DNA of 64,000 bases from Octopus vulgaris. Lineage: Eukaryota. Each line of letters opens with the position of its first letter. Position 1 is the first letter of the stretch. Made by a program: the position numbers. Shown here piece by piece: positions 51,344 to 54,300 of the stretch. The DNA lies in NCBI GenBank assembly GCA_951406725.2, contig OX597833.1:58528001-58592000 (forward strand), in the 5' to 3' direction.

Positions 51344-54300
51344 ACACATGCACACGCACACACACACACACGTACACATGCACACACACACACGTACACA
51401 TGCACACACACACACACACTCACAAACACTTACACACACTCACACGCACACACACACACACACACTCATGCACACACACACTCTTGCTTTCCTTGTCTGT
51501 ACTTACAACATACAACTCATGTTTATATTGTAGCCAGATTGTTTCCACAAGCTTTTATTTTCTACAAAATCTTTTTTTAAATTTTCCAGGATGTTTGGTT
51601 CGTTACAGTGGACTCTCGTTAATCTATGGCATTTTGCTGCTGCTGACTCCTCTCTTCAAAAGTCCAACAATAGAATCCTTACGCGGTAAGTGTTTCACGA
51701 TTTTATCTTAGTTGACCATTTAAGACCTTGTGCCATAAATGCCTTTTGATACCTTTTAATAAAGCAATTGCAGCGTGGAAGGTGTTTATAAGCCATACTC
51801 CAAGTCCATGGAGCCTGTGGAAGAGAGAGGCTAAAGACACAAGATAAAGTGATGAAGATTTAATTCAAGAGGCTGAACCGTATGAAGATGGCTGTAGTAT
51901 GGAGTAAAGTTCACTGCTGAAGACTATGCACCCAACCCATGTAAACATTGGAAAATGAATACAAAAATGATGATGGTGATAAAATAAATTGAAAAAAAAA
52001 TAATACTTTTCAACAGGAATATAGAATTTGAAAGAGTTAAAGTGGAAAGTGATAATCATTTTTAACAAAGGCACACAAGGCCTTTATTAAAAGATTATTT
52101 ATGGAGATGTACTTGCATAGCAAGTCGCCTGATCCGAGAAGGTGTGCTGAAACAAAAACAATTGCAGCATAGAAGGTGTTTATAAGCCATTTAAAAAACA
52201 CACAAAAACCATTAGATTCACTTCAACATTTTCGGCACTTTGAAACCACGACCTGTTCACTGACAAAATTCCGAGATGCAGCATGGAGTTTTGTCAGTGA
52301 ACAAATCATGGTTTCAAAATGATGAAAATATTTTGACAACTTAAATTTAAATGTTGAAGTGAATCTAATGGCTTTTGTGTGTTTTTAAATGGCTTATAAA
52401 CACCTTCTATGCTGCAATTGTTTTTGTTTCAGCACACCTTCTCGGATCAGGTGACTTGCTATGCAAGTACATTTCCATAAATCTTTTAATAATTATTATT
52501 GCTAATATTACACATGCACTTGAACAAACTTGCTTCTTTTCTTCCCAGCTTTTACAGTTCCTCATCATTCAATCTCTATATCTTATTTCTTTATTGCCCA
52601 CAAGGGGCTACATGCAGAAGGGACAAACAAGGACAGACAAAGGGATTAAGTCAATTACATCGACCCCAGTGCATAATTGGTACTTGATTTATCGACCTCA
52701 AAAGGATGAAAGGCAAAGTCGACCTTGGTGGAATTTGAACTCAGAGCGTAACAGCAGACGAAATACCGCTAAGCACTTCACCCGGCGTGCTAACGTTTCT
52801 GCCAGCTCACTGCCATTCAATCTCCATATCTTACTATACAAGTATTGTACAATCTGTGCTTCTCTCTGAGGGAGAAACCTTTTGTTACCTGCAGTGGTAA
52901 TTGTTCTCTGAACTTGTTCCGTTCGATTCTTAATATGATTACTAAGCTTTTGGAACATTCCACCCCCATTGCTTATCAGGCCATTCAGGTAGTAGAAGCT
53001 ATCAGTTACCTGTAGGAAGTCTTCCAAGTATTTGCAGGAACTTATTTCACATGTACTCTTACCATTAACGGTACATGTCTGGCCAACATATGAAGTCTAC
53101 ATTTCCTGTCAGTCTGCCTGCCATCCCATTACACTTCTGTGCATCCATAGTTTAAACTGGGTACAACATATGAAATTCCTATGTCCTCTTACCGTTAACA
53201 GTACATCTCTGTGCAACATACGAAGTCTACATTTCCTGTTAGCCTACCTGCCATCCCATTACACTTCTGTGCATCCATAGTTTAAACTGGGTACAACTTA
53301 TGAAATTCCTATGTCCTCTTACCGTTAACGGTACATCTCTGTGCAACATACGAAGTCTACATTTCCTGTTAGCCTACCTGCCATCCCATTACACTTCTGT
53401 GCATCCATAGTTTAAACTGGGTACAACTTATGAAATTCCTATGTACTCTTGCATGTCGAATGCAACAGCAGTTGTGATTTGTTTTGTTTTGCTAATATAA
53501 ACTTTAGTCTCTGCCAGGCTTATTTTGAGATCTCTCAGTTCTAGGTTTTTGCTGTCAACTTCGGAATTTTTTCTTTAGATTTTTTTTTTGTCTGATTAAG
53601 CTACAAAAACTAGACTATTGGCAAACTGGCATACCTCTAGACAACTAGACTTATACCGTTTTTTTCTGGCCTACAGGACTATAGTTAACAGAAGGGCGCT
53701 GAGAACTGAGCCTTGATATACTCCAGCTTACATGTTAAATTCCTTATAGAATTTATTGTTGTCAACTTCAGAATTTTTTTAAAGATTTTTTTTGTCTGAT
53801 TAAGCTATGGAAACTAGATTATTGGCAAATTGGCATTCCTCTAGTCAACTGGACTTACACCATTTTTTCTGGCCTACTGGACTATAGTTAACAGAAGGGT
53901 GCTGAGAACAGAGCCTTGATATACTCCTACTTGCATGTTAAATTCCTTATAGAATTTATTGTTGTCAAATTCAGAATTTTTTAAAGATTTTTTCGTCTGA
54001 TTAAGCTACGAATACTAGATTATTGGCAAACTAGCATTCCTCTAGACAACTGGACTTACACCATTTTTTCTGGCCTATAGGACTATAGTTAACAGAAGGG
54101 TGCTGAGAACTGAGCCTTGATATACTCCTACTTGCATGTTAAATTCCTTATAGAATTTATTGTTAACTCTCATTTTGTTGACCCTTCCTTCTGAACATGG
54201 TGTGTATGACCCCCACAAGTTATTCGTGTACTCTTAGCTTTCTTAGTGGTCACCTGACAGCAGTGAAAGCTTGTTGAAAGCATTCTTAATGTTGGCAAAT

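What the first reader, a model, noticed from the sequence alone, without database searches (positions are those of the whole stretch)
51590..51685. Lone Piezo exon 2 in 64 kb: cephalopod mechanosensor with giant TE-filled introns
Seen: a single 96-bp exon with strong splice sites, buried in a spurious ORF (51400-51711). Knowledge: the peptide matches the Piezo N-terminal TM region, and the recalled vertebrate exon 2 has the same length and phase. Inference: no convincing exon 1 or exon 3 was found, implying intron 1 may exceed 51 kb and intron 2 may exceed 12 kb. Such an exon could easily be missed in gene models, truncating the annotated N-terminus.
Basis: partly seen in the sequence, partly recalled or inferred. 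Interest (0 to 1): 0.7.

Follow-up and report, generated by a model that had tools for sequence, protein, structure and literature searches.

The report
Ordinary Piezo channel exon amid repeats
This is a real-looking 96-base coding exon from the start of a Piezo mechanosensitive channel gene, sitting alone among repeat-rich introns, which is ordinary for a large invertebrate genome.

Summary
Window 51590-51685 (+) is a 96-bp open segment preceded by a pyrimidine tract and AG, and followed by GTAAGT. Its 31 full codons match only Piezo. The Pfam hit is Piezo_TM1-24, E=1e-4 alone and 5e-5 in 73-aa context, at profile positions 1-27/33. All 4 PDB hits are Piezo1 or Piezo2 chains, at residues 23-50. 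Identities stop at the exon edges. None of 1166 control ORFs from the window hit Piezo or reached E<=1e-4. I read it as the exon-2 equivalent of a Piezo gene.

- **Exon 3:** none detectable in the 12.3 kb downstream.
- **Exon 1:** none convincing upstream, but it is short, lies outside the Pfam profile and is essentially undetectable here. "Intron 1 >51 kb" is therefore open.
- **"TE-filled":** this means non-coding SINE-like copies (41% of the window) plus long microsatellites; no transposon protein domains were found.
- **Cephalopod origin and a missed gene model:** neither could be tested.

A Piezo transcript is already annotated in Octopus bimaculoides and used as a marker (PMC11736069). 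Low interest.

The parts
51590..51685 (+). Coding exon (96 bp, phase 1 at both ends). It encodes the 31 full codons CLVRY...ESLR plus two split codons, and is the exon-2 equivalent of a Piezo gene (about residues 22-54).
   Evidence: Sequence and translation. Pfam PF24871 Piezo_TM1-24, E=1e-4, profile 1-27/682; 5e-5 in 73-aa context. In PDB, 4 of 4 hits are Piezo1/2 chains, residues 23-50. Identities are confined to exon-coded residues. Not covered by any intra-window repeat.
51568..51589 (+). 3' splice site of the upstream intron: pyrimidine-rich tract ending in CAG.
   Evidence: 14 of 17 pyrimidines at -20..-4. Only 35 acceptors this good on the + strand of the window.
51686..51691 (+). 5' splice site of the downstream intron, GTAAGT (G at exon position -1).
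   Evidence: Donor score 7 of 9. GTAAGT occurs 13 times on the + strand in 64 kb.
50652..51481 (.). 830-bp imperfect (AC)n microsatellite inside the upstream intron, ending 108 nt before the exon. It keeps the exon's frame open and creates the 'spurious ORF'.
   Evidence: Tandem Repeats Finder; ORF 50632-51711.
50227..50644 (+). One copy of a roughly 430-bp SINE-like interspersed element. Its A-rich tail runs into the (AC)n array.
   Evidence: blastn of the reference copy 38850-39400 against the window; sequence read.
1..51567 (+). Repeat-rich non-coding sequence upstream. At least its 3' part is the intron preceding the exon. Exon 1 was not identified and may or may not lie here.
   Evidence: No Piezo hit in any + strand ORF scanned. 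Exon-1 candidate scan and two candidates with 0 PDB hits. Repeats.
51692..64000 (+). Downstream intron sequence (at least its 5' part). No exon 3 was detected before the window ends.
   Evidence: 0 of 201 + strand ORFs >=20 aa hit Piezo even at E<=1. The single equally well-flanked phase-1 candidate, 60980-61100, is not Piezo-like.

Best explanation
Window 51590-51685 (+) is a genuine internal coding exon of a Piezo-type mechanosensitive cation-channel gene transcribed on the + strand. It is spliced at the AG (51588-89) and at GTAAGT (51686-91). It contributes about 32 residues (about 22-54 in vertebrate chain numbering), including one hydrophobic helix at the very start of the first transmembrane helical unit of the Piezo blade.

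The rest of the gene lies outside the window, or, for the short exon 1, possibly inside it but unrecognised. The surrounding DNA is intron filled with SINE-like copies and micro/minisatellites.

Shown: the sequence anatomy, the Piezo-specific similarity and its register, and the absence of other detectable Piezo exons.
Inferred: that the sites are used in vivo, that the gene is intact and functional, and the sizes of the introns.
For: 1. AG and GTAAGT flank a 96-bp open segment.
2. Piezo_TM1-24 is the only Pfam family hit at E<=10 for the exon peptide: E=1e-4, peptide 4-30 to profile 1-27 of 682. In 73-aa context it is E=5e-5, 22.4 bits.
3. All 4 PDB sequences found at E<=10 are Piezo1 or Piezo2 chains. 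Query residue 1 aligns to chain residue 23 in both paralogues. By my count from the printed alignments, identity is 16 of 26 and 16 of 28.
4. With 34 intron-coded residues added upstream and 7 downstream, the identities still begin at the first exon codon and end at the split codon at the exon's 3' end.
5. Controls: 0 of 1166 other ORFs of the window hit a Piezo family and 0 reached E<=1e-4 (936 + strand ORFs >=20 aa and 230 - strand ORFs >=50 aa). Three unrelated window peptides sent to PDB gave no hit or an unrelated hit at E=1.4.
6. Splice-like motifs are rare: 13 GTAAGT and 35 comparable acceptors per 64 kb of + strand.
7. The exon is unique sequence between repeats.
8. There is no in-frame ATG upstream in the ORF, so the acceptor is needed.
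Against: - The Pfam score (21.4-22.4 bits) is below the family's gathering cut-off of 28.8, as expected for 31 residues of a 682-position profile. Alone it would occur by chance about 0.1-0.2 times among the window's ORFs.
- phmmer against 1.84 billion representative proteins gave 0 hits at E<=1e-3. The peptide is too short for a library that size.
- No annotated protein of 87-2000 aa carries the peptide.
- No neighbouring Piezo exon was found to confirm a gene.
- No transcript evidence or orthologous genome could be consulted.
Confidence: 0.88

Rival explanations
1. The exon is real, but the reader's giant-intron inference is wrong. Exon 1, exon 3 or both lie inside the window and were simply not recognisable with the tools at hand, so introns 1 and 2 are shorter than 51 kb and 12 kb.
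For: - Exon 1 should code only about 22 residues that lie before position 1 of the Pfam profile, so Pfam cannot see it.
- 411 ATG-to-phase-1-GT candidates exist upstream, 65 of them hydrophobic with a donor score >=5 of 9. Several lie in unique sequence, for example 33066-33114, which by my reading has A at -3 and G at +4 around the ATG.
- Published octopus introns are usually far shorter: median 2,467 bp in O. vulgaris (PMC10700109, Table 3 passage) and mean 5.4 kb in O. minor (PMC6279123, passage). That comparison applies only if the window is from an octopus.
Against: - Only 10 upstream candidates have a donor score >=7 of 9, and the 3 of them with hydrophobicity above 0.8 (the only ones printed) are repeat-coded.
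- The two candidates I tested gave 0 PDB hits.
- 0 of 201 downstream + strand ORFs hit Piezo at E<=1.
- Only 1 downstream segment has splice sites as good as the exon's in the right phase, and it is not Piezo-like.
Confidence: 0.4
2. It is a relic or extra copy of a Piezo exon, such as a fragment of a duplicated or decayed gene, or an unused alternative exon. It is no longer part of the functional Piezo mRNA.
For: No neighbouring Piezo exon was found anywhere in 64 kb. The exon sits in heavily repeat-invaded DNA.
Against: The reading frame and both splice sites are intact, and the most conserved Piezo residues are kept. There is no second copy of the exon in the window. Lone exons between long introns are expected in a genome with this repeat load.
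Confidence: 0.07
3. It is a chance resemblance: a hydrophobic, leucine-rich ORF in non-coding DNA that happens to look like the Piezo N-terminus.
For: The score is below Pfam's gathering cut-off. The peptide is short and leucine-rich. There is no hit in the 1.84-billion-protein library. Chance hits of 7e-4 to 2e-3 do occur among the window's ORFs.
Against: - Only Piezo is hit, in two independent libraries. The register is the same in both paralogues (residue 23), at the very start of the Pfam profile.
- The alignment ends coincide with a strong acceptor and a perfect GTAAGT. By my arithmetic that coincidence is about 1.5e-5, times about 0.1-0.2 expected chance hits.
- 0 of 1166 control ORFs do as well.
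Confidence: 0.03

Closest known systems
Vertebrate Piezo1 / Piezo2 N-terminus (solved chains 8yez_A, 2521 aa; 6kg7_A, 2822 aa)
   Same: The exon peptide aligns to residues 23-50 of both, with 16 of 26 and 16 of 28 identities by my count. The shared core pattern is C..R(Y/F).GLS..Y...LLL.P.F..PT.
   Different: Only 31 residues can be compared, and the rest of the protein is not in the window.
Pfam PF24871 Piezo_TM1-24
   Same: The match starts at profile position 1 and runs to 27-33. This is the first transmembrane segment covered by the family model.
   Different: 21.4-22.4 bits against a gathering cut-off of 28.8. The fragment covers under 5% of the 682-position profile.
Octopus bimaculoides PIEZO (XM_014926525.1), used as a primary-sensory-neuron marker in the arm nerve cord
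   Same: If the window is from a cephalopod, this is the kind of gene it belongs to. The paper shows that a cephalopod Piezo is already annotated and cloned (PMC11736069, passages read through 'find').
   Different: I could not fetch that sequence, so I do not know whether its model includes this exon or whether the window is from that species.

Membership tests
Piezo mechanosensitive channel (gene-level membership) | Significant match to the N-terminal blade model (Pfam Piezo_TM1-24) at or above the curated cut-off | tested here: inconclusive
   Piezo_TM1-24 was the only family hit for the exon peptide and the clear best of 2 for the 73-aa context (Phospholamban at E=0.15 was the other). E is 1e-4 / 5e-5, but 21.4-22.4 bits is below the 28.8 cut-off. 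A 31-residue fragment cannot reach it.
Piezo mechanosensitive channel (gene-level membership) | Match in the correct register at the protein's N-terminus in both paralogues | tested here: met
   Query residue 1 aligns to chain residue 23 in Piezo1 and Piezo2 chains, and 4 of 4 PDB hits are Piezo. Identities are confined to exon-coded residues.
Piezo mechanosensitive channel (gene-level membership) | C-terminal pore module, cap and anchor, and about 38 transmembrane helices in a protein of more than 2000 aa | not testable with these tools
   None of this is in the window: 0 of 1166 ORFs hit any Piezo family. No eukaryotic genome or transcript collection is available to follow the gene.
Piezo mechanosensitive channel (gene-level membership) | Exon-intron structure shared with known Piezo genes (exon 2 of 96 bp, phase 1-1) | not tested
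Length and phase in the window are read. One paper search for boundary variant names gave nothing usable.
Expressed, spliced exon | Junction reads at 51589/51590 and 51685/51686 | not testable with these tools
   No read or transcript data are available. Only the splice-site consensus was checked.

The most novel reading that the evidence does not exclude
The exon is real but absent from the current gene model of this species, so the annotated Piezo lacks its true N-terminus (first helices of the blade). In addition, the 830-bp CA-type repeat ending 108 nt upstream of the acceptor may modulate inclusion of this symmetric (phase 1-1) exon, as intronic CA repeats do for some vertebrate exons. 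That last point is established knowledge recalled by me, not tested here.
Probability: 0.12. Interest if true: 0.3.

Novelty: already known. Interest (0 to 1): 0.1.

Why it matters
It matters little. Piezo channels are conserved across animals, and a cephalopod Piezo is already annotated and used as a marker. One exon of such a gene between long, repeat-rich introns is expected.

The only practical value is as a quality check. Short N-terminal exons isolated by tens of kilobases of repeats are easy for gene predictors to lose. Anyone working on this species' Piezo should therefore confirm that the model starts upstream of, and includes, 51590-51685.

Tried and rejected
- **phmmer of the 31-aa peptide against 1.84 billion representatives:** 0 hits at E<=1e-3. 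The peptide is too short for that library, so this is uninformative.
- **The search for homologous proteins:** A 49-aa stretch in 'longer' mode found none. The 359-aa ORF with region 311-359 in 'longer' mode found none. The tool only looked at proteins of up to 2000 aa, so full-length Piezo proteins were out of reach.
- **ESM Atlas:** no usable hit.
- **Fetching a PDB chain sequence for a local tblastn:** not possible.
- **Whole-frame translations sent to Pfam:** rejected because of stop codons. I used stop-free ORFs instead.
- **Exon 1 hunt:** ATG-to-phase-1-donor scan, a CpG profile with no clear island, and two candidates sent to PDB with 0 hits.
- **Exon 3 hunt:** Pfam on 201 downstream ORFs, a splice-site scan giving 1 candidate and a PDB search on it that was not Piezo.
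- **Other genes or transposon proteins in the window:** there are only weak hits, which I take for chance: Pex2_Pex12 7e-4, Cadherin_C_2 0.0018, PHD 0.002, Zip 0.002 and 7tm_7 0.002.
- **Rfam and tRNA scans of the window:** nothing. Rfam at E<=1 on one SINE-like copy gave no tRNA match, only sub-threshold miRNA-like hits on its (TA)n hairpin.
- **Naming the organism:** a SINE-derived ORF in the protein collection found nothing, and a 15-base string in the paper library found nothing.
- **Paper search for exon-boundary variant names:** nothing usable.
- **Not done:** I did not use structure prediction, complex prediction or genome contigs (bacteria and archaea only), as none bears on the question.

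Full report
**What is there**

At 51588-51589 an AG closes a pyrimidine-rich tract. The sequence from 51590 to 51685 is open in one frame, and 51686-51691 reads GTAAGT. In that frame the segment starts with two bases that complete a codon, holds 31 full codons (CLVRY...ESLR) and ends with the first base of a codon. It is therefore 96 bp with phase-1 introns on both sides.

Stop to stop it runs 50632-51711 (359 aa), because the frame stays open through an 830-bp imperfect (AC)n array at 50652-51481. That ORF has no in-frame ATG between the microsatellite and the exon, so the coding sequence must be entered by splicing.

The window has no N, 38.4% G+C and CpG observed/expected of 0.53. I do not take it for human.

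**Is the Piezo match real**

- The exon peptide hits one Pfam family at E<=10: Piezo_TM1-24 (PF24871), E=1e-4, 21.4 bits, peptide 4-30 on profile positions 1-27 of 682.
- Against all PDB chains, 4 of 4 hits at E<=10 are Piezo1 or Piezo2 (E=0.0016-0.0085). The first exon codon aligns to chain residue 23 in both paralogues. I count 16 of 26 and 16 of 28 identities in the printed alignments.
- I repeated both searches with 34 intron-coded residues added upstream and 7 downstream (51490-51708). Pfam improved to 5e-5 and Piezo1 to 6e-4. All identities lay between the first exon codon and the split codon at the exon's 3' end.
- The score stays under Pfam's gathering cut-off (28.8 bits), which a 31-residue piece of a 682-position model cannot reach.

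**Controls**

I scanned 936 of the 990 stop-to-stop ORFs of at least 20 aa on the + strand. The 54 left out were low-complexity, microsatellite-coded ORFs. I also scanned 230 of the 232 - strand ORFs of at least 50 aa with entropy >=3.2 bits (list made).

- 0 of these 1166 ORFs hit a Piezo family.
- 0 reached E<=1e-4, and 1 reached E<=1e-3 (Pex2_Pex12, 7e-4, 20559-20903).
- The calls were 19 and 20, which show hits to E<=1, and 32, 36, 37, 59, 60, 61 and 62, which show hits to E<=0.01.
- Three other window peptides sent to PDB gave 0 hits or an unrelated hit at E=1.4.
- On the + strand the window holds 13 GTAAGT and 35 acceptors as good as this one.
- By my arithmetic, the chance of both lying within a few codons of the ends of a random alignment is about 1.5e-5. 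That multiplies about 0.1-0.2 expected chance Pfam hits of this strength.

I conclude with about 0.9 confidence that this is a true Piezo exon, the equivalent of the exon that starts at codon 23 in vertebrate Piezo1 and Piezo2.

**Searches that gave nothing**

- phmmer of the peptide against 1.84 billion representatives found nothing at E<=1e-3, as expected for 31 residues.
- The word-indexed protein search found nothing in proteins of 87-2000 aa or 630-2000 aa. It cannot reach proteins as long as the solved Piezo chains found here (2521-3020 aa).
- The ESM Atlas gave no usable hit.
- So I could not obtain a mollusc Piezo sequence for a tblastn, and could not see whether any annotated model contains this exon.

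**Neighbouring exons**

*Downstream (51692-64000):*
- 0 of 201 + strand ORFs hit Piezo even at E<=1.
- Only one segment has an acceptor and donor as strong as the exon's in the required phase (60980-61100), and it is not Piezo-like.

*Upstream:*
- Exon 1 should encode only about 22 residues that lie before the first position of the Pfam profile, so Pfam cannot detect it.
- A scan for ATG, 12-60 codons, then a phase-1 GT gave 411 candidates. Of these, 65 are hydrophobic with a donor score >=5 of 9, most of them inside a (TG)n array.
- With the length capped at 45 codons, 10 candidates have a donor score >=7 of 9, and the 3 of them with hydrophobicity above 0.8 (the only ones printed) are repeat-coded.
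- The two best-looking candidates in unique sequence (21417-21491 and the ORF 33018-33122) gave 0 PDB hits.

As the operators ask, I searched exon by exon.

These negatives are weak. I put the chance that exon 1 or exon 3 nevertheless lies in the window at roughly 0.4. If the window is from an octopus, published introns are much shorter than 51 kb. The O. vulgaris median is 2,467 bp (PMC10700109, Table 3 passage). The O. minor mean is 5.4 kb (PMC6279123, passage). Long first introns in large neural genes are common, but that is my own knowledge and was not tested.

**What fills the introns**

- A self-comparison shows 41% of the window covered by sequence repeated elsewhere in the window. The exon itself is not covered.
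- The main family is a roughly 430-bp non-coding element. Besides the reference copy itself, 39 matching pieces lie across the window, on both strands, at 73-96% identity.
- One copy lies at 50227-50644 in + orientation, and its A-rich tail runs into the (AC)n array that ends 108 nt before the exon.
- By eye its head carries Pol III A- and B-box-like motifs. From memory it resembles the abundant octopus SINE. Neither ARAGORN, nor Rfam at its gathering scores on the window, nor Rfam at E<=1 on one copy saw a tRNA.
- A SINE-derived ORF found no protein and a 15-base string found no paper.
- Long micro- and minisatellites add several kilobases more.
- No reverse transcriptase, transposase or integrase domain appeared in any ORF scanned. 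So 'TE-filled' is right only in the sense of non-autonomous repeats.

**Organism**

No tool here holds eukaryotic genomes. 'Cephalopod' therefore rests on recollection of the repeat family and stays unverified.

**Comparison with what is known, and verdict**

Piezo channels are a well-known family. A Piezo transcript is annotated in Octopus bimaculoides (XM_014926525.1) and used as a sensory-neuron marker (PMC11736069, passages). The finding is an ordinary exon of a known gene in an ordinary repeat-rich setting.

Its only use is as a check on the N-terminus of the gene model. Whether the vertebrate exon has the same length and phase remains untested (one search gave nothing usable). Supplementary tables of the genome papers were not opened and would not bear on this locus.

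Noticed in passing
window 38890-39360 (reference copy); other copies include 77-443, 1054-1834, 12936-13349, 47288-47677, 50227-50644, 61786-62213: A roughly 430-bp non-coding interspersed element. Besides the reference copy, 39 matching pieces lie across the 64 kb at 73-96% identity, in both orientations. It has an internal (CA/TA)n stretch and an A-rich tail. By eye the head has Pol III box-like motifs, and from memory it resembles an abundant octopus SINE. No tRNA was called by ARAGORN or Rfam.
   Followed up: partly
window 7073-9495, 40876-42563, 19319-19990, 21731-22075, 50652-51481: Very long imperfect microsatellites: (TA/TG)-rich of 2.4 kb, (TA)n of 1.7 kb, (TG)n, (AC)n and (AC)n of 0.83 kb. 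They keep several reading frames open at once and produce the longest 'ORFs' in the window.
   Followed up: yes
window 4610-6215, 31501-32747, 53549-54164, 53051-53450, 17232-17769, 60093-60461: Minisatellite or tandem arrays with long units: 229 bp x6.9, 253 bp x4.9, 201 bp x3, 130 bp x3.1, 177 bp x3 and 188 bp x2, at 87-95% matches. Origin unknown.
   Followed up: no
window 26363-26536 (+), next to a (TCC)n run at 26667-26816: A 58-aa ORF with a full-length but sub-threshold PHD-finger match (E=0.002, profile 1-47 of 47) and a Cys/His pattern. It may be a decayed zinc-finger fragment of a mobile element, a stray exon, or chance.
   Followed up: partly
window 37453-37755 (+) and 20559-20903 (+): Weak sub-threshold Pfam hits: Cadherin_C_2 at E=0.0018 and Pex2_Pex12 at E=7e-4. 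About this many are expected by chance among 1166 ORFs, and the translations look non-coding.
   Followed up: partly
window 51591-51686 (+), frame +1 relative to the Piezo frame: An ATG sits at the second base of the exon and opens a different frame (MFGSLQW...) that runs to a stop overlapping the donor. The ORF 51534-51686 has no Pfam hit. I take it for coincidence.
   Followed up: yes
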